64,000 nucleotides of DNA from Candidatus Eutrophobius brisbanensis (GCA_038131795.1 JAYPQE010000003.1:525691-589690), one strand, 5' to 3'. Counted from the first letter of the stretch, positions 22,098-59,088 are shown. Numbers and translations: made by a program. Notes: generated by a model not told the origin, from the letters alone.

Positions 22098-22149
22098 GAC
22101 AAAAACAAATTCATAAAGTATCCGCCCTGTGGGCGGTATTTTTATTACT

Positions 22150-35097: not shown

Positions 35098-35173
35098 GCC
35101 GGAATAGCTCAGTTGGTAGAGCGGCGCATTCGTAATGCGTAGGTCGGAGGTTCGAATCCTCTTTCCGGCACCA
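35098..35173 (+). tRNA. tRNA-Thr (anticodon CGT). Integration target of the island.
   Basis: 'GCCGGAATAGCTCAGTTGGTAGAGCGGCGCATTCGTAATGCGTAGGTCGGAGGTTCGAATCCTCTTTCCGGCACCA'. Anticodon loop TTCGTAA. Its 3' 20 nt are repeated at 46995..47014. Confidence 0.9.
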
Positions 35174-35276
35174 CTTTCACTTCCCGTAACGTCCAGAGCA
35201 GTCTAAAATAGTTTTAAAATATGCTTAAATAATCATTTTTTCTTCCAGAGACGTCCAGAAGTGTATATTGACATCT

Positions 35277-35336
35277 GGGGGCACATGGGGGCATATTTGG
35301 GGGCACATTTCAATTAAAGTCCGAGGATGTGCCCCC
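35277..35336. promoter_or_regulatory. Putative integrase arm-type binding sites: three direct 'GGGGGCA(C/T)AT' repeats plus an inverted copy overlapping the int start
   Basis: 'GGGGGCACATGGGGGCATATTTGGGGGCACATTTC...ATGTGCCCCCAA'. Related 'TGGGGGCATAT(A)TGGGGGCACATTTC' lies at 45291..45316, and 'TGGGGGCATATT' at 46929..46940, each ~55-65 bp left of an att copy. Confidence 0.4.
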
Positions 35337-35337
35337 A

Positions 35338-36549
35338 ATGAAGCTGACTAACACCGCAATCAGCAACCTGAAAAAGCTCTCAAAAACCACCCGCCTGTTT
35401 GATGGTGGAGGTTTATATCTTGAAGCTACGCCTCAGGGTGGTAAGTACTGGCGTTTGAAATACCGGTTCCTTGGTAAAGAGAAACGTTTGGCACTGGGAG
35501 TTTATCCTGATGTCACCCTGAAAATGGCCAGGGATCGTCGTGAGGAGGCCAGACGGTTACTGGCAGATGGTATAGACCCTGGAGAACATAAAAAATCCTT
35601 GCTGGACTCGAAAAAAGAAAACCTCAATAACACCTTCCAATCCGTTGCGGATGAGTGGCATCAGAAACAATCTAAAGACTGGACCGAACAACATTCACTG
35701 AGCGTAAAACGCAGACTGGAATTGAATGTGTTTCCCTGGCTAGGAGACAGACCGATAGCAGACATAAACCCGAAAGAGATTTTGTCGGTAATATGCCGAA
35801 TCGAGGATCGTGGTGCCCTGGAAACAGCTCACCGAGTATATTGGTCTTGTGGTCAGGTTTTCCGTTATGGCGTGGCGACCGGAAGGGTTATGACCGACCC
35901 TTGCCGTGATCTCAGAGGGTTCTTACCCCCGACCAGGGTTAACCATAGAGCAGCAATCACTGAGCCTGTCAAAGTAGGGGAGTTGCTACGTGCAATTGAC
36001 GGATATGATGGAACGATGATTGTAAAGAACGCGATGAAACTCGCTCCGTTAGTATTTGTACGGCCAGGGGAACTCCGGCAGGCAGAATGGAAGGATATTG
36101 ACCTTGATAAGGCAGAATGGCGCTACACCATTTCAAAGACCAATACCCCCCATATTGTACCTCTCTCAAATCAGGCACTTAAAATACTCGAAGAAATTCA
36201 ACCTCTCACGGGCAAGGGCCAATATGTGTTTCCAAGTGCAAGGTCTGCAAAGCGGCCAATGAGTGATAATGCAATCCTAGCTGCATTTAGGCGCATGGGA
36301 TATGACAAGGAAGAAATGAGTGTTCATGGCTTTCGTGCGATGGCCAGAACAATTCTTGATGAGGTGTTAGGATTTCGTCCTGATTTTATAGAACATCAGT
36401 TGGCTCATGCTGTACGCGATCCGAATGGTCGGGCATATAACAGAACATCACATCTAAAAGAACGGACAATAATGATGCAGAAGTGGGCAGATTATCTCGA
36501 CACACTAAAAGCGGGCGCAGAGGTTATTTCTATCAAAAGAAATTCTTAA
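35338..36549 (+). CDS. int: P4-type tyrosine integrase (DUF4102 arm-binding N-terminus)
   Basis: 'MKLTNTAISNLKK..RLFDGGGLYLEATPQGGKYWRLKYRFLGKEKRLALGVYPDVTLKMARDRREEARRLLADGIDP' is the P4-family N-terminus. The catalytic region has 'HGFRAMART' and 'LAH'. The ORF track begins at the GTG at 35329; the ATG at 35338 is preferred. Confidence 0.9.
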   Translation: MKLTNTAISNLKKLSKTTRLFDGGGLYLEATPQGGKYWRLKYRFLGKEKRLALGVYPDVTLKMARDRREEARRLLADGIDPGEHKKSLLDSKKENLNNTFQSVADEWHQKQSKDWTEQHSLSVKRRLELNVFPWLGDRPIADINPKEILSVICRIEDRGALETAHRVYWSCGQVFRYGVATGRVMTDPCRDLRGFLPPTRVNHRAAITEPVKVGELLRAIDGYDGTMIVKNAMKLAPLVFVRPGELRQAEWKDIDLDKAEWRYTISKTNTPHIVPLSNQALKILEEIQPLTGKGQYVFPSARSAKRPMSDNAILAAFRRMGYDKEEMSVHGFRAMARTILDEVLGFRPDFIEHQLAHAVRDPNGRAYNRTSHLKERTIMMQKWADYLDTLKAGAEVISIKRNS

Positions 36550-36602
36550 AAATTAAATGATATAATTATGGCGTATATCTCCTTCTTCACTTCTTAAAGA
36601 GT

Positions 36603-36790
36603 TCAATTAACATTAGTGCATCTGACCGTTAACAATAGTACCTTTGCGTCTTAACTGACCATTCTCATAATAATACTCAAAAGGACCATTTGCTTTGCCG
36701 TCAACATAAGTTTCTTTTTCCCATAACTGACCATTTTCCCTTAGTTGAAATCGAGGTCGGCCGGGGCACTCTTGCTCTGGAGTTTGCAAA
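36603..36790 (-). pseudogene. Remnant of a MORN-variant / YwqK-like repeat protein
   Basis: The minus strand translates '..QLRENGQLWEKETYVDGKANGPFEYYYENGQLRRKGTIVNGQMH*' (YENGQL..G..DGK..G.W repeats). There is no ATG, and an in-frame TAA lies upstream. Less than 60 aa, so absent from the ORF track. Confidence 0.3.
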
Positions 36791-36917
36791 TAGATGTGCT
36801 TTTAGAATCCAATAAACATATCTTGGAATTGAAGATGATTTGCATGATTTTTTTCGTAATTTTAAAGACTATGTATAATGTAGCAACATTTACTTCCATT
36901 AAACTAGTTTTAGCCAA

Positions 36918-37457
36918 TTGGTAATTATGATGAGCGATGACGTAAAAATTCTGGCTGCAAACATAGCTAGCGCATTAGAAAGCGCATTAGAAAAGGGTGA
37001 CCATTCATCTGAAAATTTTAGAAATCTTTGCAGAAAATTAGAAGGTGATGAGCCGCCAGAGGAGTTCGAGCGTTTTGCAGTTTTAATTGAAAGGGAAGAT
37101 TGGCGGTTTTGTGATAGTGAGCTAATCGATTGGTGGGACACTGAGTCAGAAAAAATCTCTGACGAACTTAGATGTGATTATATGAGAGAGGTGCTCACTC
37201 TTGCCATAGATGAGCCCACTGAAGATACATGTTCCGCACATTGGGAAGAAATTCCTCTCTCACCTGAAAAATCTTTGTATTGTTGTGCTTTAATATATTT
37301 AGTAGGGCATTCACTAAGTATTAATTGGTTTGGTGCTTACCTTTCTGTTAAGCAATTTTATGTAGCATTGACTGAAGCTGGTTTTGTGACATGTGAAGAG
37401 GATGTAGCTGCTCTGAATAATGAGACTTTACTAAAGTATTGGAGATTTGATGAATAA
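36918..37457 (+). CDS. Hypothetical acidic protein (island cargo)
   Basis: 179-aa ORF, pI acidic, no recognisable motifs. Followed at ~37655..37685 by a hairpin plus T7 run (terminator-like). Confidence 0.35.
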   Translation: MVIMMSDDVKILAANIASALESALEKGDHSSENFRNLCRKLEGDEPPEEFERFAVLIEREDWRFCDSELIDWWDTESEKISDELRCDYMREVLTLAIDEPTEDTCSAHWEEIPLSPEKSLYCCALIYLVGHSLSINWFGAYLSVKQFYVALTEAGFVTCEEDVAALNNETLLKYWRFDE

Positions 37458-37770
37458 TCATAATTACTTGCCAAATCAAAATTGGAAAATATGATTAAAA
37501 AAATATGAGAGAACAGGTAGAAAGCATAGACTAGCTACAAATCTGACACTGAATAGATTATTTTTGAAATACATACTATAATACATGACTAACGCCGATT
37601 TGATTTCAGCTTGCGGGCGTTTTATAAATACAGCTAAAGAGAGGGCAACCTGCTTTAGCATATGCTGAGCGGGTTTTTTTGTGGCTGATCGATCCTTATT
37701 CGATTCGGTATTTGTTAACCAGCTTGTACACCGAGGCATCGTGCCTAAAGTACTAAAGAGGAGAAATATT

Positions 37771-38343
37771 ATGTCTTTTACACGTCGGCAGTTCCTGTTA
37801 ACCACTTGTGGTTCAGGTATCGGTTTTATCCTTCCATCTTTCTATGACGAAGCCCTCACCTTATGGGAAAACCATGGCGAGATACTACTTCGCCCGGCGC
37901 CTGATGCTAAAACCATACTATATGCCTACCAGGAAATGGAACTTGAGCTTAACCTGGGTGACCCTAGGACTCGACCCCCGCAAATGATACGCAGAGAGTA
38001 TATTGAAAAGTATGTATATGGTGGACTTGAAACCTATTTTGAAGAATTATCGGACCTTGATGGATGCGAAGGATATGACCTGGATGCCGAGGTTGATTTC
38101 TGGGAGGTATTAGATGTCTGGGGGTTAGTTGATAGCCCATGGGCAAAAGCATATAAGTATTTAAAAAGCCTTGATCTTGGTCCTGATTTTACCAGTCCTG
38201 ATGCTGTTGGCGGTATTAGTACAGGGACAGGTGCACCAGGCACCAACCACATAGCATTACATGCCAACGATGACATTTCCCTCAGTCTACTTCAGGAGCG
38301 TCTTAATCAACTGAATACGGGCGTTCGTATCGAGCTTGTGTAA
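37771..38343 (+). CDS. Hypothetical Tat-signal protein (island cargo)
   Basis: ORF 37681..38343. The internal 'MSFTRRQFLLTTCGSGIGFILP' is a twin-arginine signal-peptide-like start. No homology recognised for the rest. Confidence 0.4.
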   Translation: MSFTRRQFLLTTCGSGIGFILPSFYDEALTLWENHGEILLRPAPDAKTILYAYQEMELELNLGDPRTRPPQMIRREYIEKYVYGGLETYFEELSDLDGCEGYDLDAEVDFWEVLDVWGLVDSPWAKAYKYLKSLDLGPDFTSPDAVGGISTGTGAPGTNHIALHANDDISLSLLQERLNQLNTGVRIELV

Positions 38344-38363
38344 TTTTATGAAAAAAAGAAAAA

Positions 38364-38668
38364 GAGGAGGGTTGACCAGATTGTTGCTGAGTCGAGAGCA
38401 GCCCGGCACCTACAAGACCGAGAACTAGTTAAGGTAACAGTCCAGCGTCAACAAGCTCTCGAACCTTCGCAAAACCGCCCTCACTTAAAGCTTGTCGAGT
38501 AGTCATGATGGTCTCCTTGGATAAGGTCAAAATTGGGTAAAGGCGGTTCAAGAAAAGGCTCTGGCAGGAAATCTAAACCTTATAGATTTCTTGAGATTGG
38601 TGGATTCTGTGAGAATCTTAATCATCAACTTTTGAATGAGATTAAACGCTCGAGGGTCGCAGCAAGCC
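38364..38668. repeat. Direct repeat copy A (X+Y module, ~300 bp) upstream of the nuclease-helicase gene
   Basis: '..GTTGCTGAGTCGAGAGCAGCCC..CCAGCGTCAACAAGCTCTCGAACCTTCGCAAAACCGCCCTCACTTAAAGCTTGTCGAGTAG' (X) plus 'GATCTCCTTGGATAAG.TCAAAATTGGGTAAAGG.GGTTCAAGAAAAGGCTCTGGCAGGAAATCTAAACC..' (Y). X recurs at 38958..39096. X-partial+Y recurs at 42809..43037. Confidence 0.8.
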
Positions 38669-38754
38669 TGCCCCCAGTAATGACACCAGATTTTGAGTCA
38701 AAAAAAACAGCTCAAAAAGTAGTAAAATTTACTGTAAAGGATATTAGTTTTTAA
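38533..38754 (+). CDS. Truncated/diverged duplicate of the basic small protein (shares its first 47 aa with 42900..43388)
   Basis: 'MGKGGSRKGSGRKSKPYRFLEIGGFCENLNHQLLNEIKRSRVAASL' is identical to the N-terminus of the 162-aa ORF, then diverges where the DNA repeat ends. TTG start in the ORF track. Confidence 0.3.
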   Translation: MGKGGSRKGSGRKSKPYRFLEIGGFCENLNHQLLNEIKRSRVAASLPPVMTPDFESKKTAQKVVKFTVKDISF

Positions 38755-38890
38755 ATGAACCTATAAACCCACTATTCAAATTTTTATATAAATATGTGAG
38801 AGCACTATTTTGTAATTTCATTTTTTATTATACAATAAGCACTGCGATTTATAACCTACTTGCTGCATAACGCTAAAGGGAGACACATCA

Positions 38891-39094
38891 ATGTACATAG
38901 ACTTTAATAAAACTGACCATCCTGAACTATACGCTGCTAAAATTAGGCGATTCAGGAGGGAGGTTGCCCAGATTGTTGCTGAGTCGAGAGCAGCCCAGCC
39001 CCTACAAGACCGAGAACTAGTGAAGGTAACAGTCCAGCGTCAACAAGCTCTCGAACCTTCGCAAAACCGCCCTCACTTAAAGCTTGTCGAGTAG
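38891..39094 (+). CDS. Small hypothetical protein (67 aa). Its 3' half lies in repeat X.
   Basis: 'MYIDFNKTDHPELYAAKIRRFRREVAQIVAESRAAQPLQDRELVKVTVQRQQALEPSQNRPHLKLVE'. Start-less copies of the C-terminal 40 aa occur at 38377..38502 and 42809..42870. Confidence 0.3.
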   Translation: MYIDFNKTDHPELYAAKIRRFRREVAQIVAESRAAQPLQDRELVKVTVQRQQALEPSQNRPHLKLVE

Positions 39095-39191
39095 TTTTGA
39101 CAATCTCGCTTCTTTGGCAATGGGAGTCTCACCAGGGTGATGAAATAAACTTGTGTTTATCCAAAATAAAAAAAACTAGCAAAATATTGAA

Positions 39192-42100
39192 ATGGCAACC
39201 TTAGAACAACTCATCTCCACCTTTGAAGGTCATGAAACTGCTAGAGGGAAGATGTTTGAAAGAGCCTGTAAATGGCTACTGGAGAACGACCCTACCTATA
39301 GTAATCTTAAAAAAGTTTGGCTATGGGATGACTGGCCAGGGCGTTGGGATATAGATAGAGGAATTGACCTTATCGCTGAGGATGAAGACGGAAAAATTTG
39401 GGGAATACAGGCCAAGCTTTATCGTCCTGAAAATAGTATTAATAGAAAAGATATAGACACATTCCTTACCGAATCAAGCAACAAATATATTCATCAACGA
39501 TTATTGATTGGCACCACTGACAATGTCTCTCGTGGCGGAATAGGTGCGATGAAGCGATGTGCTGAGCTTATTCCAGTAAATCAATTATTGCGCTCTGAGC
39601 TGTTAGCTAAACAAATAGAGTGGCCTGAGTCACTTGATAAGCTCTCTACCGGAGGCTTAAAAGCTAAAAATAACCCGCGCCCAGATCAAGAGAGAGCTAT
39701 TGAAGATGTTGTTACTAACTTTAAAGATCAATCCCGAGGCCAACTCATCATGGCTTGCGGAACTGGAAAGACTCTTACAGCGCTATGGATAGCGGAAAAG
39801 CTAAAGAGTGAGACAACCCTTGTATTATTACCATCATTATTGCTTCTATCAAAGACACTATCGGAATGGGTGACACAGTCTTCAGAACCATTTTCTTTTT
39901 TACCAGTCTGCTCTGATGACTCTGTCTCTAAATCCGATGATTCAATAAACTATTCCACAACAGAACTTGGCTTTCCTTCGACTACTGATGCAGCAGAAAT
40001 CGCTAAATTTCTTGATAAATCTGGCAGAAAGGTAATTTTTTCAACATATCAGTCATCTCAGCAAATAGCTGATGCTTTTGAAAAGAAGAAAATTAAGCCC
40101 TTTGAGTTAGTCATTGCTGATGAAGCTCATCGTTGTGCAGGTAAAGCTGGAGCAGATTACACAACCGTATTAGATAACAAAGCTATACCGGCTAAGAAAC
40201 GTCTATTTATGACTGCTACTCCAAAGATATTCCAGACCTTTGTTAAGAAAGAAGCAGAAGATAGAGGTGTTGAAGTCTATTCAATGGATGATGAGGCTTT
40301 ATTTGGCAAGGTATTTCATAAGCTTTCCTTTGGAGAAGCTATAGAGCAAAAACTACTTACGGATTATCAAGTATCTATCGTAGGTATTGATGAGCCAATA
40401 TTAGCGGAAATGATAAGTAAAAGAGAACTTGTTAAGACCGATACTGGTATTGAAACAGATGCACAGACTATTGCGGCTCATATAGGGTTGGCGAAAGCCA
40501 TAAAAACCTATGACCTTAAACGAATAATCACGTTTCACTCTAAAGTTAAATCAGCTGATGAGTTCCAAGGGGACTTCAAAAAAGTTTTAGATTGGATGCC
40601 TAATGAGCATAAACCTGATGGAAAGTTCATTACTAACTTCGTTTCAGGAGCAATGACAACAGCTACAAGGAATACCAGACTAGGAGAACTGGGAGAGATT
40701 GCTGAAGGCAAAAGAGGAATCCTTTCAAATGCCAGATGCTTATCTGAAGGTGTAGATGTCCCAACTTTAGATGGGATTGCTTTCATAGACCCAAGAAACT
40801 CTGAGATCGATATCGTTCAAGCAGTAGGTCGCGCGATTAGGCTAGCTAAAGGAAAAGACAAAGGCACAATTGTTATTCCCATTTTTATTTCTGATTTTGA
40901 TGACCCTGAAGAAGTATTAAATGACTCGTCATATAAGAAGATTTGGGCGGTTATCAACGCGCTACGGGCACATGATGAAAATCTTGGTATCGAGCTTGAT
41001 AATTTAAGAAAAATGATGGGCAAAAGAGGCAGCGTAGGTCGCTCTGAAAAGATTCATTTTGATTTGCCTGTAACTATTGATGCAGAGTTTGCAGAATGTT
41101 TTAGTATTAAACTACTTGAGACTACTACTGCATCTTGGGAGTTTTGGTTTGGATTATTAGAAGAATACAAAGATGCACATGGTCATGCTAATCCGTCACA
41201 AAGTTATATAACAAATACTAAATATCAATTAGGTACTTGGTGCGACAAAAACCGACAAAATTATAAAAAAAATAAGTTAACCTCTGAGAAAATCAATCGA
41301 CTTGAGGCTTTAGGATTTATCTGGGACCTTCTAGCTCAGCAATGGGAGGAAGGATTCAAGGAGCTATCTGCATACAAAGATGCACATGGTCATGCTAACC
41401 CAGCAACCAATCATAAAACAGATACTGATTATCAATTAGGTACTTGGTGCAACACAAACCGAACAAATTATAAAAAAAATAAGTTAACCTCTGAGAAAAT
41501 CAATCGACTTGAGGCTTTGGGATTTATCTGGGACCCTCTAGCTCAGCAATGGGAGGAAGGATTCAAGGAGCTATCTGCATACAAAGATGCACATGGTCAT
41601 GCTAATCCGTCAAGCAGATATATAACAAATACTAAATATCAATTAGGTACTTGGTGCGACAAAAACCGAACAAATTATAAAAAAAATAAGTTAACCTCTG
41701 AGAAAATCAATCGACTTGAGGCTTTAGGATTTATCTGGAACCCTCAAGCTCAGCAATGGGAGCAAGGATTCAAGGAGCTATCTGCATACAAAGATGCACA
41801 TGGTCATGCTAATCCGTCAAAAAGTTATATAACAAATACTAAATATCAATTAGGTGCTTGGTGCGACGCAAACCGACAAAATTATAAAAAAAATAAGTTA
41901 ACCTCTGAGAAAATCAATCGACTTGAGGCTTTAGGATTTATCTGGGACCCTCTAGCTCAGCAATGGGAGGAAGGATTCAAGGAGCTATCTGCATACAAAG
42001 ATGCACATGGTCATGCTAATCCGCCACAAAGTTATATAACAAATACTAAATATCAATTAGGTACTTGGTGCGACACAAACCGAACAAATTATAAAAAAAA

Positions 42101-42785
42101 TAAGTTAACCTCTGAGAAAATCAATCGACTTGAGGCTTTGGGATTTATCTGGGACCCTCTAGCTCAGCAATGGGAGGAAGGATTCAAGGAGCTATCTGCA
42201 TACAAAGATGCACATGGTCATGCTAATCCGTCAAAAAGTTATATAACAAATACTAAATATCAATTAGGTGCTTGGTGCGACACAAACCGACAAAATTATA
42301 AAAAAAATAAGTTAACCTCTGAGAAAATCAATCGACTTGAGGCTTTAGGATTTATCTGGGACCTTCTAGCTCAGCAATGGGAGGAAGGATTCAAGGAGCT
42401 ATCTGCATACAAAGATGCACATGGTCATGCTAACCCAGCAACCAATCATAAAACAGATACTGATTATCAATTAGGTGCTTGGTGCAACACAAACCGACAA
42501 AATTATAAAAAAAATAAGTTAACCTCTGAGAAAATCAATCGACTTGAGGCTTTAGGATTTATCTGGGACCCTCTAGCTCAGCAATGGGAGGAAGGATTCA
42601 AGGAGCTATCTGCATACAAAGATACACATGGTCATGCTAATCCGCCACAAAGTTATATAACAAATACTAAATATCAATTAGGTACTTGGTGCAACACAAA
42701 CCGACGAAATTATAAAAAAAATAAGTTAACCTCTGAGAAAATCAATCGACTTGAGGCTTTAGGATTTAAGTGGTCTATAAAATAA
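39192..42785 (+). CDS. Mrr-like PD-(D/E)xK nuclease fused to an SF2 DEAH-box helicase and 8 tandem helicase-associated (HA) domains
   Basis: The N-terminus has the Mrr_cat motif 'DIDRGIDLIAEDEDGKIWGIQAKLY'. Walker A 'MACGTGKTLTALW'. DEAH 'VIADEAHRCAG'. Helicase-C motif VI 'QAVGRAIRLAKGK'. The C-terminus (from ~aa 648) has 8 x 69-aa repeats 'WEEGFKELSAYKDAHGHANP..YQLGTWCD.NR.NYKKNKLTSEKINRLEALGFIWDPLAQQ', which is the HA-domain consensus (LG.W...R......L......L..LGF.W). Confidence 0.85.
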   Translation: MATLEQLISTFEGHETARGKMFERACKWLLENDPTYSNLKKVWLWDDWPGRWDIDRGIDLIAEDEDGKIWGIQAKLYRPENSINRKDIDTFLTESSNKYIHQRLLIGTTDNVSRGGIGAMKRCAELIPVNQLLRSELLAKQIEWPESLDKLSTGGLKAKNNPRPDQERAIEDVVTNFKDQSRGQLIMACGTGKTLTALWIAEKLKSETTLVLLPSLLLLSKTLSEWVTQSSEPFSFLPVCSDDSVSKSDDSINYSTTELGFPSTTDAAEIAKFLDKSGRKVIFSTYQSSQQIADAFEKKKIKPFELVIADEAHRCAGKAGADYTTVLDNKAIPAKKRLFMTATPKIFQTFVKKEAEDRGVEVYSMDDEALFGKVFHKLSFGEAIEQKLLTDYQVSIVGIDEPILAEMISKRELVKTDTGIETDAQTIAAHIGLAKAIKTYDLKRIITFHSKVKSADEFQGDFKKVLDWMPNEHKPDGKFITNFVSGAMTTATRNTRLGELGEIAEGKRGILSNARCLSEGVDVPTLDGIAFIDPRNSEIDIVQAVGRAIRLAKGKDKGTIVIPIFISDFDDPEEVLNDSSYKKIWAVINALRAHDENLGIELDNLRKMMGKRGSVGRSEKIHFDLPVTIDAEFAECFSIKLLETTTASWEFWFGLLEEYKDAHGHANPSQSYITNTKYQLGTWCDKNRQNYKKNKLTSEKINRLEALGFIWDLLAQQWEEGFKELSAYKDAHGHANPATNHKTDTDYQLGTWCNTNRTNYKKNKLTSEKINRLEALGFIWDPLAQQWEEGFKELSAYKDAHGHANPSSRYITNTKYQLGTWCDKNRTNYKKNKLTSEKINRLEALGFIWNPQAQQWEQGFKELSAYKDAHGHANPSKSYITNTKYQLGAWCDANRQNYKKNKLTSEKINRLEALGFIWDPLAQQWEEGFKELSAYKDAHGHANPPQSYITNTKYQLGTWCDTNRTNYKKNKLTSEKINRLEALGFIWDPLAQQWEEGFKELSAYKDAHGHANPSKSYITNTKYQLGAWCDTNRQNYKKNKLTSEKINRLEALGFIWDLLAQQWEEGFKELSAYKDAHGHANPATNHKTDTDYQLGAWCNTNRQNYKKNKLTSEKINRLEALGFIWDPLAQQWEEGFKELSAYKDTHGHANPPQSYITNTKYQLGTWCNTNRRNYKKNKLTSEKINRLEALGFKWSIK
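41136..42785 (+). repeat. Tandem array of 8 x 207-bp near-identical coding repeats (HA domains)
   Basis: The unit starts 'TGGGAG(GAAGGATTCAAGGAGCTATCTGCATACAAAGATGCACATGGTCATGCTAA)'. It recurs at 41136, 41343, 41550, 41757, 41964, 42171, 42378 and 42585. Differences are confined to a few codon positions. Confidence 0.9.
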
Positions 42786-42808
42786 ATGGGAACGGCGCAG
42801 GAAGAACT

Positions 42809-43037
42809 CCAGCGTCAACAAGCTCTCGAACTCTCGCAAAACCGCCCTCACTTAAAGCTTGTCGAGTAGTTCTGATGATCTCCTTGGATAAGTTCAAAAT
42901 TGGGTAAAGGTGGTTCAAGAAAAGGCTCTGGCAGGAAATCTAAACCTTATAGATTTCTTGAGGTTGGTGGATTCTGTGAGAATCTTAATCATCAACTTTT
43001 GAATGAGATTAAACGCTCGAGGGTCGCGGCAAGCCTG
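42809..43037. repeat. Direct repeat copy C (X-partial + Y) downstream of the nuclease-helicase gene
   Basis: 'CCAGCGTCAACAAGCTCTCGAACTCTCGCAAAACCGCCCTCACTTAAAGCTTGTCGAGTAGTTCTGATGATCTCCTTGGATAAGTTCAAAATTGGGTAAAGGTGGTTCAAG...GCAAGCCTG' is >90% identical to 38440..38668. Confidence 0.8.
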
Positions 43038-43388
43038 TCAGCTTATGACGAAGCCGTCTATAAAGCCAAATCTAAAGGCGTCCGAGCTTATGTGAATCCA
43101 AAGACCGACGAACAAGAAGACCATCATGAAAATATTCAAGAAGCATTATTGAAAGACAAAAAGAAGTTTAAGAAATCAGTAGCACTACTTAATAAGCTTG
43201 TAGCGGGGCAGTTATCTGAAGAAATCTATCTCCAGCAGAAACCGTCCATCCCAAGGTATCAACAATTAAAGAATCCAAGACCTCCAAGACAGGAGGTGCT
43301 GAAACAAGCATCTAAACACTTTTGCTTAAAGATAAGCACCATTGATAAGTACTGGAAGGATTTCAGGAAAACTCTAAAAGATAAATAA
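42900..43388 (+). CDS. Hypothetical highly basic protein (162 aa)
   Basis: 'MGKGGSRKGSGRKSKPYRFLEVGGFCENLNHQLLNEIKRSRVAASLSAYDEAVYKAKSKG...'. Lys/Arg-rich. TTG start in the ORF track. Full-length version of 38533..38754. Confidence 0.4.
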   Translation: MGKGGSRKGSGRKSKPYRFLEVGGFCENLNHQLLNEIKRSRVAASLSAYDEAVYKAKSKGVRAYVNPKTDEQEDHHENIQEALLKDKKKFKKSVALLNKLVAGQLSEEIYLQQKPSIPRYQQLKNPRPPRQEVLKQASKHFCLKISTIDKYWKDFRKTLKDK

Positions 43389-43489
43389 AATCAATAACAT
43401 ATTTGAAAAAATACCTCTTAAAAAAAATATCCTAGCGGCATCTGCTTAAATCCCCTTGAATCTTAATATGTCCAAAGGAGGACAATGAT

Positions 43490-43711
43490 ATGGAGCATGC
43501 CGCAGAAATTCGACTCATTAGACTGCCCGAAGTCAAATCACGCACGGGGTTATCTCGTTCAACTATTTATTTATGGATTAAAGAAGGTAAATTTCCGGCT
43601 CCTATATCTCTTGGTATGAGGGCTGTAGGATGGCTCGAATTCGATATTCAGCAATGGCTGGATGACAGGATCAAAATAAGCCGCCCGGACCACATTGATG
43701 CGAAAGCATAA
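43490..43711 (+). CDS. alpA: AlpA-family phage/island transcriptional regulator (excisionase-like HTH)
   Basis: 'IRLIRLPEVKSRTGLSRSTIYLWIKEGKFPAPISLGMRAVGWLEFDIQQWL' is the AlpA/MerR-type HTH consensus. Typical partner of P4-type integrases. Confidence 0.85.
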   Translation: MEHAAEIRLIRLPEVKSRTGLSRSTIYLWIKEGKFPAPISLGMRAVGWLEFDIQQWLDDRIKISRPDHIDAKA

Positions 43712-44132
43712 TCCTCGGCTTGTAAAGATTCACAGAAATTATACGGTTGAGGAAATAGCTATCCTGTTCGGCATTCATAAGAACACAGTTCACCAATGGA
43801 TTAAGCGTGGTTTGCCTGTTATGGATAACAAAAGACCAAAACTAATACATGGCGAGGAGTTATTAGGTTTTATCAAGGAGTGTCGCACCAAAAATAAGAA
43901 ATCATGTAAGCCTGGTGAGATTTACTGTGTGAAGTGTCGTGAACCTCGGTCACCATTAAATTTGGAAGTTTGTTACCGCCCGATTACCGAAAAACTGGGG
44001 GATTTAGTTGGTATATGCCCCTGTTGTGAGATAGCTATCTATCGAAGAGCAAGTATGGCTAAATTGCAGTGTATTCGAGGTGAACTATCGATAATGATGC
44101 CGAAAGGTTTGGAACACTTAGTAGAGACATAA
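43695..44132 (+). CDS. HTH domain protein with C-terminal C4 zinc ribbon (hypothetical regulator)
   Basis: 'YTVEEIAILFGIHKNTVHQWIKRGLPV' HTH. 'CVKCREP....CPCCE' zinc ribbon. Overlaps alpA by 17 nt. Confidence 0.5.
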   Translation: MMRKHNPRLVKIHRNYTVEEIAILFGIHKNTVHQWIKRGLPVMDNKRPKLIHGEELLGFIKECRTKNKKSCKPGEIYCVKCREPRSPLNLEVCYRPITEKLGDLVGICPCCEIAIYRRASMAKLQCIRGELSIMMPKGLEHLVET

Positions 44133-44174
44133 TCACTCTCCGTAAACAGTGACTTCCAATAGTGAGGTAAAATA

Positions 44175-45260
44175 ATGTCAAAATACAATGCTGAAAATGA
44201 ACGTATCAAGCGCCAGTATTTTACTTTTTTGAAAGAGGCAAAGCGTCAAGACGAATCAACTATTGATGCGGTTGCCAAGGCCATACGGCGGTTTGAAGAT
44301 TACTGTAGTCAGCGTAGTTTCAAGAAATTCAATTTCAACCAGGCGGTTGCTTTTAAGAAGCATTTAGCTAACCAGAGGAATATACAGACAGGCAGGAATT
44401 TAAGTAAGGCAACGATAAATTCCACGTTGGGTCACTTAAAACGGTTATTTCAATGGTTGTCCGATAAACCTGGATATAAATCCCGGATTAGCTACTCCGA
44501 TGCTGATTATTTCAACCTTTCCGAGAAAGATACCCGTGTAGCCAAGGCCGTCCACCCTAGACAGGTACCGACACTTGACCAGATACGGCATGTCCTTGGT
44601 TGTATGCCGGTAGATTCGGATATTTCCTCGCGCAATCGGGCGATTATCGCTTTTACGATCCTGACGGGTGCCAGGGACAACGCCATTGCCTCATTGAAAT
44701 TGAAACACATAGATTTGATTGGAAGAAGTGTTTACCAGGATGCCCGAGAAGTCAGGACGAAATTCAGTAAATCCTTCACAACTTATTTTTTCCCGGTAGG
44801 TGAGGATATACGGGAAATTGTTGAACAATGGATACAATACCTTAGAGAAGGATTGTTATGGGGCAATGAGGACCCCTTATTTCCTGCTACAGCGGTCAGG
44901 GTAGGGGAGTCCAGGCAATTTGAAGCTAATGGGCTGAAAAAGAGCCATTGGAGTAACGCCAGTCCAATAAGGTCCATTTTTAAGGATGCGTTTACACAGG
45001 CTGGATTAGACTATTTTAATCCCCATACATTCCGGAATACCCTGGTTGGGTTGGGTGAGAAAATTTGCAATACTCCCGAAGACTTCAAGGCATGGAGTCA
45101 AAATCTGGGACATGAGGAAGTTCTAACCACTTTTAATAGCTATGGTGAGGTATCGAACCAGCGCCAATCTGAAATCATCCGATCCCTGGGTGCCGAAGAA
45201 GGTGATGAATCGGAAGAAATAAAATTACTCAGAAAATTGGTAAAAAAACATAATCTTTAA
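44175..45260 (+). CDS. Tyrosine-type site-specific recombinase (second integrase of the island)
   Basis: N-terminal SAM-like 'FNQAVAFKKHLANQR'. Catalytic 'R' in 'GARDNAI'. 'HTFRNT' (HxxR) and 'LGHEEVLTTFNSYGEV' (catalytic Tyr). Followed 30 bp downstream by the GGGGGCA repeats and the internal att copy. Confidence 0.85.
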   Translation: MSKYNAENERIKRQYFTFLKEAKRQDESTIDAVAKAIRRFEDYCSQRSFKKFNFNQAVAFKKHLANQRNIQTGRNLSKATINSTLGHLKRLFQWLSDKPGYKSRISYSDADYFNLSEKDTRVAKAVHPRQVPTLDQIRHVLGCMPVDSDISSRNRAIIAFTILTGARDNAIASLKLKHIDLIGRSVYQDAREVRTKFSKSFTTYFFPVGEDIREIVEQWIQYLREGLLWGNEDPLFPATAVRVGESRQFEANGLKKSHWSNASPIRSIFKDAFTQAGLDYFNPHTFRNTLVGLGEKICNTPEDFKAWSQNLGHEEVLTTFNSYGEVSNQRQSEIIRSLGAEEGDESEEIKLLRKLVKKHNL

Positions 45261-45506
45261 ACCAATAATACAGGGTATGACTTCGGTACTTGGGGGCATA
45301 TATGGGGGCACATTTCTGGAGCATGATGCATCAATTATATTGAAAACAGATAGATACGGTTGCTTATAGAATCCTCTTTCCGCCCATTTTCATTTCCAGC
45401 AACATAAGGAATACAATAATCACTTGAACCCAAATCCTAACTTTGAAAATGGTACCGTTACTGGGAGTAGGTCACAAGTTATCTAGTATCACAAAGGATC
45501 ACTTAG

Positions 45507-46421
45507 TTGAATATTTTTGATTCATATGTAATTGTTGATTGGAGTTCTTCAAATAAACCTAATACGGGTAAAGATAGTATATGGTATTGCCAAATTATTT
45601 GGAAAGATGGTGAAATAGCTATAAAAAATCTTAAGAATCCATCGACAAGGCATCAAGCTTTTAATGAAATACGCGAAATATTAATCCAATCTAAAGATAA
45701 AAATCATAGAACATTAGTTGGGTTCGATTTTTCTTATGGTTATCCATCAGGTTTCTCAAAATATCTAGGGTTAGAACAAGAAAATAAATGGTTATCTATA
45801 TGGAGACATATTGATTCTCTTATAGTAGATAATATAGATAACGAAAATAATAGGTTCGAGGTCGCTAATAAAATCAATGATCTATTAAGCGGGGCAAATT
45901 ACCCCTTTTGGGGCTGTCCAAGTAGTGAAACACGTGAAAACCTTACCTCAACAAAAGCAGAAAAACCTTTGCATTTTGAAATCGATGATTTCAGAATAAC
46001 TGAAAAAAAAATACAGCGAGCGCAATCGGTTTGGAAACTATTCTATTCGGGTAGTGTTGGCGGCCAAGTTTTAACTGGTATTCCAAAGCTTTGGAACCTA
46101 TATAAAGATAAAGAATTATTTAAATATTCAATAGTTTGGCCTTTCGAAACAGGCCTTCATCATATAAATCAAGATAAACTTAAAAATAAATTAATTGTTC
46201 ATGCTGAAATTTATCCTTCGATTATAGATATTAATGCTGACAATAATGAGGCGAAGGATAAAGCTCAGGTTAGGGAGCTTGCCAGCCATTTTGCAAAGTT
46301 AGATAAAGATAATAAACTCGGAGAATTGTTTGCAGGTCCTATGAATCTGACTTTTGATGAAAGAAAAATAATTGAAGATGAAGAAGGGTGGATTCTAGGG
46401 GTTGTTGATAAAAATCACTAA
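45507..46421 (+). CDS. Hypothetical protein, possibly RNase-H-like fold (DUF429-like N-terminus). Very AT-rich.
   Basis: 'MNIFDSYVIVDWSSSNKPNTGKDSIWYCQI' resembles the (I/V)GxDxS... start of RNase-H-like DUF429/YqgF proteins. Weak motif-level call. Lies between the internal att and attR. Confidence 0.3.
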   Translation: MNIFDSYVIVDWSSSNKPNTGKDSIWYCQIIWKDGEIAIKNLKNPSTRHQAFNEIREILIQSKDKNHRTLVGFDFSYGYPSGFSKYLGLEQENKWLSIWRHIDSLIVDNIDNENNRFEVANKINDLLSGANYPFWGCPSSETRENLTSTKAEKPLHFEIDDFRITEKKIQRAQSVWKLFYSGSVGGQVLTGIPKLWNLYKDKELFKYSIVWPFETGLHHINQDKLKNKLIVHAEIYPSIIDINADNNEAKDKAQVRELASHFAKLDKDNKLGELFAGPMNLTFDERKIIEDEEGWILGVVDKNH

Positions 46422-46425
46422 TCGG

Positions 46426-46894
46426 TGAAACCGTCCGCGTGCATACTGAACCAGGACGGGTGATCCTCACCTACCGCCACCGAAGCGGCGGAGAGGATTG
46501 AAAGGAAGAAAGTTATCCCGTCTATCTCGATTGGACTGCCTGTAATCTTGGCGGGCAACGGCCCTGGTTTCTTTGTCCTGTCCATGGTTGCGGGCGGCGC
46601 GTGGCGATCCTCTACGGGGGCGGCATCTTCGCTTGCCGTCACTGCTACCAGTTAGCCTATACCAGCCAGCGGGAAACCTGGGATGATCGGGCTGCACGGA
46701 AGGCGGATCGCATCAGAGACAAGCTGGGATGGGAGCCGGGCATCCTGAATGGTAATGGCTTAAAGCCCAAGGGGATGCACTGGAACACCTTCGAGCGGTT
46801 GACCGCACAGCATGATGCGTTTGTGAATATCTCCCTTGTCAGGATGGCACGAAGGTTTAATCTATTAGGTGAATCGCTTGAAGACTGGATATAA
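46426..46894 (+). pseudogene. High-GC gene fragment with an internal stop (foreign-origin remnant)
   Basis: One frame reads '..TEPGRVILTYRHRSGGED*KEESYPVYLDWTACNLGGQRPWFLCPVHGCGRRVAILYGGGIFACRHCYQLAYTSQRETWDDRAARKADRIRDKLGWEPG..LEDWI*'. It has a zinc-ribbon-like CPxC..CRHC. GC is visibly much higher than the flanks (~35%). No start codon; it begins at the stop of the upstream gene. Confidence 0.4.
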
Positions 46895-47162
46895 ATTTGC
46901 AATAAATATACATAGTGAGAATTGCCGATGGGGGCATATTGCGCATTATATCTTTAATAAACTTAATAATAACAGATAGATACGGTTACTTATAGAATCC
47001 TCTTTCCGGCACCATTTTAACGAGGGTCCATACCGGGCACATGGGTAACAGATTATTCCGAGAACATTGATAACACTTTTTTGTATAAATCAAATGGACG
47101 CTGGATCTCGACGAAATGCCTGTAAATCAACATCACCAGGTAGCGGTGAATGTATTCGCTTT

Positions 47163-58629: not shown

Positions 58630-58705
58630 CGGGGCATAGCGCAGTCTGGTAGCGCATCTGCTTTGGGAGCAGAGGGTCGGGAGTTCGAATCTCTCTGCCC
58701 CGACC
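58630..58705 (+). tRNA. tRNA-Pro (anticodon TGG)
   Basis: 'CGGGGCATAGCGCAGTCTGGTAGCGCATCTGCTTTGGGAGCAGAGGGTCGGGAGTTCGAATCTCTCTGCCCCGACCA'. Anticodon loop TTTGGGA. Confidence 0.85.
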
Positions 58706-58756
58706 AATATATTATCCAAATACACGGATAAGAATTGTAGTGAAAGGCTTTGAATA

Positions 58757-58833
58757 GCGCCCGTAGCTCATCTGGATAGAGCATCGGCCTTCTAAGCCGA
58801 GGGTAGCAGGTTCGAATCCTGCCGGGCGCGCCA
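58757..58833 (+). tRNA. tRNA-Arg (anticodon TCT)
   Basis: 'GCGCCCGTAGCTCATCTGGATAGAGCATCGGCCTTCTAAGCCGAGGGTAGCAGGTTCGAATCCTGCCGGGCGCGCCA'. Anticodon loop CTTCTAA. Confidence 0.85.
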
Positions 58834-58878
58834 AAACAAAAATTACATGTCACTTAGTAACTTATGACAATTTTTAAT

Positions 58879-58955
58879 GGTGGGTGTAGCTCAGTTGGTA
58901 GAGCGCTGGATTGTGGCTCCGGAGGTCGTGGGTTCAAGCCCCATCACTCACCCCA
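58879..58955 (+). tRNA. tRNA-His (anticodon GTG, with G-1)
   Basis: 'GGTGGGTGTAGCTCAGTTGGTAGAGCGCTGGATTGTGGCTCCGGAGGTCGTGGGTTCAAGCCCCATCACTCACCCCA'. Anticodon loop TTGTGGC. Extra 5' G typical of tRNA-His. Confidence 0.85.
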
Positions 58956-59012
58956 TTTTTAAGATCAAAGTGAAAAGGAAATTAATTTTCACTTTTTACT
59001 TTAATTAAAATA

Positions 59013-59088
59013 GGGCCGTTAGCTCAGTTGGTAGAGCAGGGGACTCTTAATCCCAAGGTCATAGGTTCGACCCCTATACGGCCCACCA
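59013..59088 (+). tRNA. tRNA-Lys (anticodon CTT)
   Basis: 'GGGCCGTTAGCTCAGTTGGTAGAGCAGGGGACTCTTAATCCCAAGGTCATAGGTTCGACCCCTATACGGCCCACCA'. Anticodon loop CTCTTAA. Confidence 0.85.

What the first reader, a model, noticed from the sequence alone, without database searches (positions are those of the whole stretch)
39192..42785. Island-borne Mrr-nuclease / SF2-helicase / 8xHA-repeat fusion: candidate novel single-gene defence (type-IV-like or abortive) system
One 1197-aa ORF combines three parts. The first is an Mrr-cat PD-(D/E)xK nuclease (DIDRGIDLIAEDEDGKIWGIQAK). The second is a complete DEAH helicase core (Walker A GTGKT, DEAH, motif VI QAVGRAIR). The third is an unusually long array of eight helicase-associated (HA) domains. 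The gene sits on an AT-rich integrative island (P4-type int, AlpA) and is bracketed by ~230-bp direct repeats. Nuclease+helicase fusions on mobile islands are the hallmark of restriction/defence modules (HsdR, SauUSI, Hna and Nhi are analogues). An N-terminal Mrr-like nuclease combined with an 8-fold HA array is not one of the described systems, as far as I know. The HA array plausibly replaces a target-recognition domain.
Basis: partly seen in the sequence, partly recalled or inferred. Interest (0 to 1): 0.8.

Follow-up and report, generated by a model that had tools for sequence, protein, structure and literature searches.

The report
Mobile-island nuclease-helicase with HA repeats
A single 1197-residue gene carried as optional cargo on a small mobile island joins the DNA-cutting and DNA-tracking parts of a known restriction enzyme type (Type ISP) to eight copies of a small DNA-binding repeat instead of the usual methylase; it belongs to a large, untested family that probably attacks foreign or rival DNA.

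Summary
ORF 39192-42785 encodes an Mrr_cat_2 nuclease, an SF2 ATPase and eight HA domains, and every catalytic motif is intact.

Residues 1-610 are a close homologue of the nuclease-motor of Type ISP restriction-modification enzymes (LlaBIII, E 4e-91). The ISP coupler, methyltransferase and target-recognition domain are missing, and the HA array sits in their place.

The architecture is not rare. More than 4,000 database proteins share it, all generically named and none functionally tested in the literature I could search.

Here the gene is a 3.7-kb single-gene cassette in the variable cargo region of a 10-kb island integrated at tRNA-Thr. Near-identical islands in two other assemblies lack it. 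Seven of nine homologue contexts examined also lie in mobile elements.

New points:
- HA units vary mainly on one face of helix 2 and in the preceding loop.
- Homologues whose motors are 90-98% identical carry unrelated arrays, so the array behaves like a swappable specificity module.

Best reading: a methylase-less, ATP-driven translocating endonuclease targeted by the HA array, used in defence or conflict between mobile elements. Rivals are a TtrA-like DNA-transfer role, an anti-defence role, and modification-dependent restriction. I class it as a new variant of a known kind; interest 0.6.

The parts
39192..42785 (+). Complete gene, 1197 aa: Mrr-family nuclease + SF2 ATPase + 8 HA units
   Evidence: AF2 full-length model pLDDT 87.6
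39192..39641 (+). Mrr-family PD-(D/E)xK nuclease domain (aa 1-150). Motif I is E23, motif II is D55-R-G-I-D59, motif III is Q73-A-K75.
   Evidence: Pfam Mrr_cat_2, E 1.6e-28. Aligns to LlaBIII residues 29 onward. The motifs correspond to LlaGI E38, D74/D78 and Q92/K94, which were shown by mutagenesis to be needed for cleavage (PMC2790908). D59, Q73 and K75 are invariant, and E23 and D55 at least 90% conserved, in 68 homologues.
39669..40889 (+). SF2 helicase-like ATPase (aa 160-566). Walker A is G190TGKT, motif II is D310EAH, motif III is T341ATP, motif VI is Q543..R550.
   Evidence: ResIII and Helicase_C; LlaBIII and LlaGI; Foldseek top hit 4xqk, E 4e-40; motifs invariant
40890..41135 (+). 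Conserved helical extension and linker (aa 567-648) joining the motor to the array. Its first part (to aa 610) is shared with LlaBIII. There is no ISP_coupler match.
   Evidence: alignment to LlaBIII ends at aa 610; helices 579-594, 596-612 and 631-645; invariant W585, H594, D595, R606; PF22240 absent here but found in a true ISP enzyme
41136..42782 (+). Array of eight 69-aa HA units (aa 649-1197), encoded by 207-bp tandem DNA repeats. The repeat-variable residues are at unit positions 21-25, 27, 29, 34, 37, 38 and 41.
39108..42807 (+). 3.7-kb single-gene cassette, absent from otherwise 98-99% identical islands in L081 and L083
   Evidence: blastn of L081/L083 against the window; GC 38.3%
39033..39107 (.). 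Left copy of the 75-bp duplication that flanks the cassette (3' end of the 67-aa backbone ORF)
   Evidence: L081 9909-9983 aligns on both sides of the cassette; sequence read
42808..42882 (.). Right copy of the 75-bp duplication
38364..38672 (.). Extra partial copy of island backbone (3' half of the small ORF plus the 5' part of the 162-aa ORF).
42799..43037 (.). Right arm of the 239-bp, 95% direct repeat. It runs into the intact 162-aa backbone ORF (42900-43388).
35098..35173 (+). tRNA-Thr(CGU). Its 3' end is the left attachment site of the island.
35329..36549 (+). P4-type tyrosine integrase
   Evidence: 98.7% identical to L081
43490..45260 (+). Island backbone: AlpA (43490-43711), HTH protein (43695-44132), second tyrosine recombinase (44175-45260)
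45369..45390 (.). Repeat of the tRNA-Thr 3' end, taken as the right end of the 10.2-kb island. A further copy at 46995-47018 closes a 1.6-kb remnant element.

Best explanation
The gene encodes a stand-alone, ATP-dependent DNA translocase-endonuclease. It derives from the nuclease-motor module of Type ISP restriction-modification enzymes. The coupler, methyltransferase and target-recognition domain have been replaced by an array of HA three-helix DNA-binding units.

Proposed mechanism:
1. The HA array binds DNA and sets which DNA is attacked (inferred).
2. Binding licenses the SF2 motor to track along double-stranded DNA using ATP (inferred by homology with LlaGI/LlaBIII).
3. The Mrr-type nuclease cuts when the motor stalls or collides with another enzyme (inferred by homology).
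4. There is no methylase, so the host would be spared because the composite target is absent from, or wrongly arranged in, its own DNA rather than because it is marked (inferred).

The gene rides as an optional single-gene cassette in the cargo hotspot of a tRNA-Thr integrative island. It most likely serves to destroy incoming phage or plasmid DNA, or the DNA of rival mobile elements.

Shown here: the domain homologies, the intact catalytic motifs, the cassette and island structure, the mobile contexts, and the hypervariable, swappable arrays.

Not shown here: any enzymatic activity, DNA binding by this array, or any phenotype.
For: Homology of the nuclease-motor:
- LlaBIII E 4e-91 over aa 14-610 and LlaGI E 3e-73.
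- PADLOC REase_MTase_IIG profile positions 3-646 of 1646, E 3e-144.
- Foldseek top hit 4xqk, E 4e-40.

Catalytic residues:
- The nuclease residues that are essential in LlaGI (PMC2790908), Walker A, DEAH and motif VI are invariant or nearly so in 68 homologues.

Absence of a methylase:
- No MTase or coupler in the protein, on the island, or recurrently next to homologues.

The HA array as the specificity module:
- Within-array variability across 123 homologues peaks at unit positions 22, 23, 34, 37, 38 and 41. These are the positions that differ among the window's otherwise 90-98% identical units.
- Positions 34/37/38/41 follow an i, i+3, i+4, i+7 spacing on helix 2.
- These positions are rich in S/T/N/Q/R/K. 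Glutamate is 2% there against 17% at other exposed positions.
- 98% of the units within an array have distinct signatures.
- pN/pS is 1.38 over all 69 codons of units 2-7.
- Of 53 pairs of homologues with motors at least 90% identical, 34 differ in unit number. On average they share 9% of unit signatures. In the 50 pairs below 99% motor identity, best-matching units are 58% identical at scaffold positions. This parallels LlaGI and LlaBIII, which are >95% alike except in the TRD (PMC3553950).
- HA is reported to bind DNA (Mills 2013, as cited in PMC12191111). Tandem HA domains occur in TniQ target selectors and in TtrA (bioRxiv 10.1101/2024.11.13.623437).

Mobile, optional cargo:
- The cassette is missing from islands that are 98-99% identical, while the chromosomal flanks are only 70-79% identical.
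- Homologues sit in an ICE, in integrase or resolvase islets, in an excisionase/RepA/RT element, and in a VapE-primase satellite-like element.
- 695 plasmid records hit. The family is almost absent from phage genomes.
Against: - No experiment exists for any member with this architecture.
- PADLOC has no dedicated family for it, and the neighbourhoods of 23 genome loci are mixed. They hold housekeeping genes plus only a few defence hits: AbiH once, MkoA three times, and kinase-type PD-T4-6 twice. I did not compute an enrichment statistic.
- Two of nine homologue contexts show no mobile hallmark (Chlamydia suis; Methylobacter).
- A long, sequence-specific target would rarely occur in phages, so broad antiphage protection is not an obvious outcome.
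- Without a methylase, any specificity swap risks cutting the host's own DNA.
- The best-studied HA-helicase, TtrA, acts in conjugal transfer, not restriction.
- The 11 hypervariable codons were chosen after looking at the data, so their pN/pS of 9.4 is inflated. Units 2 and 7 share one block variant, so the differences are not independent events.
Confidence: 0.45

Rival explanations
1. Modification-dependent (Type IV-like) restriction. The HA array senses modified or hypermodified bases in phage DNA, and the motor-nuclease then degrades that DNA. The unmodified host DNA is ignored, which would explain why there is no methylase.
For: No MTase anywhere. The Mrr nuclease family includes the modification-dependent enzyme Mrr (PMC2790908). 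SauUSI is a precedent for a helicase-nuclease Type IV enzyme. The END-nuclease preprint lists PLD-nuclease + HA fusions beside modification sensors.
Against: No known modified-base reader (SRA, EVE/PUA, YTH, iEndoIII) is detected. Known sensors are single base-flipping domains. They are not arrays of 3-20 units that all differ from one another. HA arrays in TniQ target selectors and in telomere-associated TtrA suggest sequence or site recognition.
Confidence: 0.15
2. TtrA-like DNA-processing helper of the mobile element. The protein recognises a site on its own element, or on a co-resident replicon, and promotes its transfer, replication or recombination rather than destroying foreign DNA.
For: A Streptomyces plasmid helicase with four HA units is colinear with aa 163-918 (32% identity, E 2e-127). 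TtrA is required for conjugation of SLP2 and sits at telomeres. A full Mrr+HA homologue lies 12-16 kb from the end of a linear Rhodococcus plasmid. One homologue is embedded among ICE transfer genes.
Against: The TtrA-like example examined lacks the nuclease. Its motor is more distant from this one (263 bits) than Type ISP motors are (296-323 bits). Islands of the same family exist without the gene, and the island's 98-99% identity against 70-79% identical chromosomal flanks points to recent spread, so the gene is not needed for the element's life cycle. The nuclease catalytic residues are strictly conserved.
Confidence: 0.15
3. Anti-defence or establishment factor of the mobile element. It would act, for example, by displacing or competing with host defence proteins on DNA, or by degrading host DNA.
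For: COG4889+HA helicases are the most frequent non-Acr/Aca domain in acr-aca2 operons, and the authors propose them as anti-defence candidates. One homologue sits beside an Apyc1-like anti-Pycsar gene and a Macro-domain gene.
Against: This is purely an association; nothing has been tested. The closest characterised relatives of the nuclease-motor are restriction enzymes. The gene is almost absent from phage genomes. No acr or aca gene lies on this island.
Confidence: 0.1
4. Chromosomal DNA-repair or replication-restart helicase-nuclease (a housekeeping role).
For: Weak similarity to RadD, UvrB and XPB. Two homologues lie in non-mobile chromosomal settings.
Against: The gene is present or absent within the same island family. 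Homologue loci share no synteny. The distribution across phyla is patchy. Array length and content turn over quickly. Codon composition is foreign. The repair-helicase matches cover only generic SF2 motifs and score far below their family cut-offs.
Confidence: 0.05

Closest known systems
[quoted passage not shown]
   Same: Both are single polypeptides with an N-terminal Mrr-family nuclease carrying the same motifs I-III, followed by the same clade of SF2 dsDNA-translocase ATPase and its helical C-terminal extension. Similarity: E 4e-91 over aa 14-610, and Foldseek E 4e-40. Both are carried on mobile elements. Both keep the motor conserved while the recognition module varies.
   Different: This protein has no coupler domain (PF22240), no gamma-class N6-adenine methyltransferase (no NPPY/F motif) and no TRD. 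Eight HA units stand in their place. It therefore cannot mark host DNA.
TtrA-type HA helicases of actinomycete linear replicons
   Same: The same SF2 motor family is followed by the same linker and tandem HA units, colinear over about 750 residues. They are also plasmid- or element-borne.
   Different: The Streptomyces TtrA-like helicase examined (762 aa) has no Mrr nuclease, and many plasmid matches likewise begin near query residue 160. TtrA genes sit next to telomeres and act in conjugal transfer. The motor of that example is more diverged from this protein than Type ISP motors are.
ATP-dependent Type IV enzyme SauUSI, and nuclease-helicase single-gene systems (Hna, Nhi)
   Same: Each is a single polypeptide with a nuclease and a helicase-like motor and no methylase. 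Each restricts foreign DNA (SauUSI; Hna and Nhi from my own knowledge).
   Different: SauUSI uses a PLD nuclease and an SRA-like reader of 5mC, and its sequence match here is marginal (7clg, E 3e-4). No PADLOC model other than the RM, PbeA and DinG helicase cores matches. None of these systems has HA repeats.
HA domain BVU_0683(627-691), PDB 2KTA

Membership tests
Type ISP restriction-modification enzyme | N-terminal Mrr-family nuclease with motifs I (E), II (DxGxD) and III (QxK) | tested here: met
   Mrr_cat_2, E 1.6e-28. E23, D55/D59 and Q73/K75 align with LlaBIII and match the LlaGI mutagenesis residues. They are conserved in 68 homologues.
Type ISP restriction-modification enzyme | ISP-clade SF2 helicase-like ATPase | tested here: met
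   LlaBIII E 4e-91 and LlaGI E 3e-73; PADLOC REase_MTase_IIG E 3e-144; Foldseek 4xqk E 4e-40
Type ISP restriction-modification enzyme | Coupler domain (Pfam ISP_coupler PF22240) | tested here: not met
   No hit at E<=0.1. The same search finds it at E 4.5e-51 in a true ISP relative, L059.
Type ISP restriction-modification enzyme | gamma-class N6-adenine methyltransferase domain (NPPY/F motif) | tested here: not met
   No MTase family in Pfam. No [ND]PP[YFW] motif in any of the HA-type proteins found in the genome loci, whereas nearly all full-length ISP-type loci have it at about residue 1000-1050.
Type ISP restriction-modification enzyme | C-terminal target-recognition domain | tested here: not met
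   The PADLOC profile is matched only over positions 3-646 of 1646. The C-terminus is eight HA units.
Type ISP restriction-modification enzyme | ATP-driven translocation from an unmethylated site and cleavage on head-on collision | not testable with these tools
   Biochemical property; known for LlaGI and LlaBIII (PMC3553950, PMC4666363).
Type IV (modification-dependent) restriction enzyme | No cognate methyltransferase | tested here: met
   None in the protein, on the island, or recurrently beside homologues.
Type IV (modification-dependent) restriction enzyme | A recognised modified-base reader domain (SRA, EVE/PUA, YTH, iEndoIII, Mrr N-terminal winged helix) | tested here: not met
   Pfam finds only Mrr_cat_2, the helicase families and HA. 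PADLOC mREase_IV models match only helicase motif VI, at E 4e-5 and 1e-3.
Type IV (modification-dependent) restriction enzyme | Cleavage only of modified DNA | not testable with these tools
   Needs enzyme assays or phage panels with defined modifications.
TtrA-type HA helicase | SF2 helicase followed by tandem HA domains | tested here: met
   Colinear with the Streptomyces plasmid protein L093:3956-6241 (E 2e-127).
TtrA-type HA helicase | Protein starts at the helicase, with no nuclease domain | tested here: not met
   The window protein has a 150-aa Mrr nuclease. The Streptomyces example (L093) has none, and many plasmid hits start at about query aa 160.
TtrA-type HA helicase | Subtelomeric position on a linear replicon | tested here: not met
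   The gene sits in a tRNA-Thr integrative island between ileS/ispH and a CitMHS transporter gene. The topology of the 2.52-Mb contig is unknown.
TtrA-type HA helicase | Required for conjugal transfer | not testable with these tools
   Genetic property reported for SLP2 (PMC8743542).
Catalogued single-gene nuclease-helicase defence systems (PADLOC-DB v2) | Full-length match to a dedicated defence-family model | tested here: not met
   Only partial matches to RM REase_MTase profiles and to helicase cores of PbeA, DinG and mREase_IV.

The most novel reading that the evidence does not exclude
HA arrays are a natural modular DNA-sequence-reading repeat system, comparable in logic to zinc-finger or TALE arrays. 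Each unit would read through a variable helix face at positions i, i+3, i+4, i+7 plus a loop. Units would be reshuffled by recombination between near-identical 207-bp repeats. On this reading the array programmes a Type ISP-type translocating nuclease against long targets in rival mobile elements or phages, with no methyltransferase at all. That would make this a distinct class of restriction enzyme with exchangeable, repeat-encoded specificity.
Probability: 0.2. Interest if true: 0.85.

Novelty: new variant of a known kind. Interest (0 to 1): 0.6.

Why it matters
Thousands of bacterial proteins share this architecture, spread over Actinomycetota, Proteobacteria, Chlamydiae, Planctomycetota, Cyanobacteria and other phyla. 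Many sit on plasmids, ICEs, islands and satellites. They are labelled only 'DEAD/DEAH box helicase' or 'Helicase associated domain protein'.

Showing that they are methylase-less descendants of Type ISP restriction enzymes, with a swappable HA array as the specificity module, gives the family a testable mechanism. It would add a widespread single-gene player to defence or inter-element conflict.

It would also assign a function to the HA domain, which is also found in TtrA, in TniQ target selectors and in PLD-nuclease fusions.

If the array reads sequence in a modular way, it could become a new scaffold for designed DNA recognition.

Tried and rejected
- **Organism identity.** Exact-sequence look-ups of 21 window proteins returned clusters with no organism names. 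The window's own contig is not in the gene-position index. The genome-contig scan did not return it. The source remains an unnamed NCBI assembly with a 2.52-Mb contig.
- **Conserved partner gene.** All-vs-all BLAST of neighbours in 25 loci found none. Small nuclease genes directly upstream (GIY-YIG in L091, HNH in L097-L099) are lineage-specific and absent here.
- **Defence-island enrichment.** The Pfam and PADLOC family tallies over 113 neighbours were too heterogeneous to support a claim, so I rely on ten individually read contexts.
- **Promoter and terminator.** The consensus scan found no + strand promoter upstream of the gene and fewer sites than in shuffles. It is uninformative; the gene may be read through from the 67-aa ORF upstream.
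- **Mills 2013 HA paper.** It could not be opened. Its conclusion is quoted second-hand.
- **Transposon-type insertion of the cassette.** Rejected, because a 75-bp flanking duplication is far too long for a target-site duplication. Recombination at a shared backbone segment fits better.
- **Pseudogene or assembly artefact.** Rejected, because the frame is open, every motif is intact, and the repeats differ at specific codons.

Full report
**Observation**

The window holds an uninterrupted ORF at 39192-42785 on the + strand, 1197 aa. Pfam finds Mrr_cat_2 (aa 32-146, E 1.6e-28), ResIII (161-345), Helicase_C (439-551) and eight HA domains (summed E 6e-167).

The array is encoded by eight 207-bp tandem repeats. 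The copies are 90-98% identical except the last, truncated one.

**What the N-terminal 610 residues are**

- The best PADLOC model is REase_MTase_IIG. It is matched only over profile positions 3-646 of 1646 (E 3e-144). The next is REase_MTase_I, matched over its first 658 of 1591 positions.
- Among solved structures the best sequence matches are the Type ISP enzymes LlaBIII (aa 14-610, E 4e-91) and LlaGI (E 3e-73).
- The AlphaFold2 model (pLDDT 87.6) finds LlaBIII first by Foldseek (E 4e-40).
- LlaGI mutagenesis defined motif I (E38), motif II (D74, D78) and motif III (Q92, K94). D74, D78 and K94 are essential for cleavage (PMC2790908). The equivalents here are E23, D55-R-G-I-D59 and Q73-A-K75.
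- These residues, Walker A (G190TGKT), DEAH (310-313), TATP (341-344) and motif VI (Q543..R550) are invariant or at least 90% conserved in 68 homologues.

So the nuclease and the motor are very probably active. They belong to the Type ISP clade.

**What is missing**

Type ISP enzymes continue with a coupler, an N6-adenine methyltransferase and a TRD (PMC4666363). None of these is present here.

- The Pfam ISP_coupler model does not match, although it matches a true ISP relative at E 4.5e-51.
- No MTase family and no NPPY-type motif is found.
- In 80 loci from the species-representative genomes, relatives fall into clear classes. HA-type proteins score 600-670 bits on aa 1-640, carry 1-12 HA units and have no NPPY. 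True ISP enzymes are about 1600 aa, have NPPY near residue 1000-1050 and score 360-415 bits. A small Planctomycete/Kuenenia group has about 400 C-terminal residues with no Pfam match.

The protein fails three defining features of Type ISP and should not be filed as one.

**How common it is**

The architecture is abundant. The protein search returned 4,365 hits at E<=1e-10 from 8,000 scored candidates. All but two of the 120 listed share all four Pfam domains. They come from Nocardia, Mycobacterium, Rhodococcus, Methylomicrobium, Chlamydia suis, Porticoccaceae and many metagenomes. They are named only 'DEAD/DEAH box helicase' or 'Helicase associated domain protein'.

The closest relative is 49% identical overall, and no other listed hit exceeds 62%, so this particular gene is a singleton. 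Array length ranges from 3 to 20 units, with mode 10. Eight is ordinary.

**The island and the cassette**

- tRNA-Thr(CGU) at 35098-35173 is followed by a P4-type integrase. AlpA, an HTH protein and a second tyrosine recombinase lie to the right.
- The 3' end of the tRNA is repeated at about 45369-45390 and again at 46995-47018. This gives a 10.2-kb island plus a 1.6-kb remnant.
- Two metagenome or MAG contigs (L081, L083) carry the same island. The integrase is 98.7% identical and the right part 97.8-98.8% identical, while the chromosomal flanks are only 70-79% identical. The island has therefore moved recently between lineages. Both copies lack the helicase gene.
- By comparison with them, the gene is a 3.7-kb cassette (39108-42807) inserted between a 65-67-aa backbone ORF and a 162-aa backbone ORF. 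It is flanked by a 75-bp duplication of backbone sequence (39033-39107 and 42808-42882).
- The region between the integrase and this segment differs between islands. L081 has TonB_C, a 171-aa ORF and SRAP there, and L082 has nothing. It is a cargo hotspot.
- The cassette is 38.3% GC, and the gene has GC3 29.8% against 40-45% for neighbouring chromosomal genes.
- No other island protein matches PADLOC beyond weak HTH hits.

**Contexts of homologues**

No neighbour is conserved across 25 loci. Pfam and PADLOC tallies over 113 neighbours are heterogeneous and contain no recurrent methylase.

Nine contexts were read individually:
- Methylomicrobium: inside an ICE with F-type transfer genes.
- An unnamed JGI metagenome contig: an integrase/resolvase/AAA_25 islet.
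- Mycobacterium colombiense: an excisionase/RepA-like element with a reverse transcriptase next door.
- Njordibacter: an integrase island with a GIY-YIG gene directly upstream.
- An unnamed ENA metagenome contig: a serine-recombinase/IS91/PemK region.
- A marine protein seen in 37 blocks of the contig index: a satellite-like element with a VapE-type primase, an overlapping HNH gene, an Apyc1-like gene and a Macro gene.
- Rhodococcus: a subtelomeric site on a linear plasmid, beside a NACHT protein.
- Chlamydia suis and Methylobacter: no mobile hallmark.

In addition, 695 plasmid records hit (Streptomyces 326, Pseudomonas 115, Rhodococcus 32). Phage genomes almost never do (3 records). The family is accessory cargo of non-phage mobile elements.

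**The HA array**

In the window's array, units 2-7 differ almost only by amino-acid changes at positions 3, 21-25, 27, 29, 34, 37, 38, 41 and 64-66. Only three codons carry purely synonymous differences. pN/pS is 1.38 over all 69 codons. It is 9.4 for the 11 variable codons, which were chosen after looking at the data and are therefore inflated. It is 0.21 for the other codons.

An independent check supports this. Across 1,170 units from 123 homologues, within-array entropy is highest at positions 22, 23, 34, 37, 38 and 41. Positions 34/37/38/41 have the i, i+3, i+4, i+7 spacing of one helix face.

These positions are rich in S, T, N, Q, R, K, A and G. Glutamate is 2% there against 17% at other exposed positions. 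98% of the units within an array have distinct signatures. This is what a nucleic-acid-contacting, specificity-determining surface looks like, but it is an inference.

**Conserved motors, unrelated arrays**

Among the retrieved homologues, 53 pairs have aa 1-620 at least 90% identical. Of these, 34 differ in unit number. On average they share 9% of unit signatures. In the 50 pairs below 99% motor identity, best-matching units are only 58% identical at scaffold positions and 19% at the variable positions. One example is P0031 and P0038: motors 97.9% identical, seven versus six units, no shared signature.

This is the pattern of LlaGI and LlaBIII, which are more than 95% alike except in the TRD (PMC3553950). 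It is the strongest evidence here that the array is the exchangeable specificity module.

**Literature**

I found no experimental work on an Mrr+helicase+HA protein. Relevant pieces are:
- HA is reported to bind DNA (Mills 2013, quoted in PMC12191111).
- PLD-nuclease + HA fusions are listed among candidate restriction enzymes.
- TtrA, a helicase with tandem HA domains at Streptomyces telomeres, is needed for conjugal transfer of SLP2. TniQ target selectors of telomeric Tn7-like transposons also carry tandem HA domains.
- COG4889+HA helicases are the commonest non-Acr/Aca domain in acr-aca2 operons and were proposed, without a test, as anti-defence candidates.

A Streptomyces TtrA-like protein (762 aa, four HA units, no nuclease) is colinear with aa 163-918 (E 2e-127). 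Its motor scores lower against this protein (263 bits) than Type ISP motors do (296-323 bits). Mrr-bearing HA-type motors score 426-528 bits.

**Interpretation**

Molecular activity: I consider an ATP-dependent, DNA-translocating Mrr-type endonuclease whose substrate choice is set by the HA array to be likely, at about 0.8. This rests on homology and conservation.

Biological role: destroying incoming or rival DNA, without methylation-based self-marking, is the best-supported reading. I give the whole statement, mechanism plus role, 0.45. It fits the restriction-enzyme ancestry, the optional mobile cargo status, the rapid array turnover and the absence of any partner.

How self is spared is unknown. 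I propose that the composite target, possibly needed in a particular pairwise orientation as in Type ISP, is absent from host DNA.

The rivals remain open, in this order: modification-dependent restriction, a TtrA-like transfer function, an anti-defence role, and housekeeping repair. The evidence for and against each is given in the rival entries.

**Verdict**

However, the architecture is a common, unnamed family rather than a rarity, and its ancestry in Type ISP can be stated precisely. I class it as a new variant of a known kind.

Interest is 0.6. The family is large, mobile and untested. The repeat-encoded, swappable recognition module is an unusual feature that makes the long-unassigned HA domain directly testable.

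Noticed in passing
window 37582-37654 and 37697-37766 (+): Two tandem SAM-II-clan riboswitch-like aptamers lie in the island's cargo region, both just under Rfam gathering scores. SAM_alpha scores 33.5 bits against 36, and SAM-V scores 34.1 against 41. The second ends in AGGAG a few bases before ATG 37771. That ATG would start a protein with a twin-arginine-like signal (MSFTRRQFLL...) inside the 220-aa ORF 37681-38343, which has no Pfam, PADLOC or PHROG match.
   Followed up: partly
window 35098-47018; L081 6390-12493; L083 512-3451: The same tRNA-Thr island occurs in other assemblies. The island is 98-99% identical while the chromosomal flanks are only 70-79% identical, so it has spread recently between lineages. 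The cargo between the integrase and the 65-aa/162-aa/AlpA module differs in each copy (SRAP and others in L081). In L082 the integrase is followed directly by the 162-aa ORF, with no cargo between them.
   Followed up: partly
window 38364-38515, 38956-39107, 42808-42882: There are three copies of the 3' end of the small backbone ORF (...QRQQALEPSQNRPHLKLVE*), each preceded by different cargo. This looks like a recurrent recombination or docking point for cargo modules. I did not examine whether the island's second tyrosine recombinase (44175-45260) acts on it.
   Followed up: no
window 45391-47018: A 1.6-kb segment is bounded by a second and a third copy of the tRNA-Thr 3' end. It holds one 304-aa ORF (45507-46421) with no family match and is absent from L083. 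It is probably a remnant of a second element integrated in tandem.
   Followed up: partly
L020 9923-13060, L022 1926-5255, L024 1411-4284, L025 2340-5339: Planctomycete and Kuenenia relatives have the same nuclease-motor (406-458 bits for L020 and L025 on aa 160-640) but carry about 400 C-terminal residues with no Pfam match instead of HA units. This is possibly a third kind of recognition module.
   Followed up: partly
L091 9180-9998; L097 9315-10001; L098 4938-5624; L099 1339-2025: In some marine homologue loci a small nuclease gene ends at or overlaps the start of the HA-helicase gene. It is LEM-3-type GIY-YIG in L091 and HNH in L097-L099. In L097/L098 an Apyc1-like metallo-beta-lactamase lies further upstream, joined in L098 by a Macro-domain gene. 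No such gene is present in the window.
   Followed up: no
L094 8001-11606 (Rhodococcus qingshengii linear plasmid RQCS_2, record 469694-473299 of 485693): A full Mrr + helicase + 8 HA homologue lies 12-16 kb from the end of a linear plasmid, next to a NACHT-domain gene. This subtelomeric position is reminiscent of nuclease-less TtrA.
   Followed up: no
window 1-22000: A low-GC (38.9%) polysaccharide biosynthesis and export cluster (UDP-GlcNAc 2-epimerase, several glycosyltransferases, Poly_export/SLBB) ends at tRNA-Pro(CGG) 22022-22098. GC rises to about 45% beyond it.
   Followed up: partly
window 58630-59088: Four tRNA genes lie in tandem (Pro-UGG, Arg-UCU, His-GUG, Lys-CUU), and tRNA-Leu(UAG) is at 62354-62438.
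   Followed up: no
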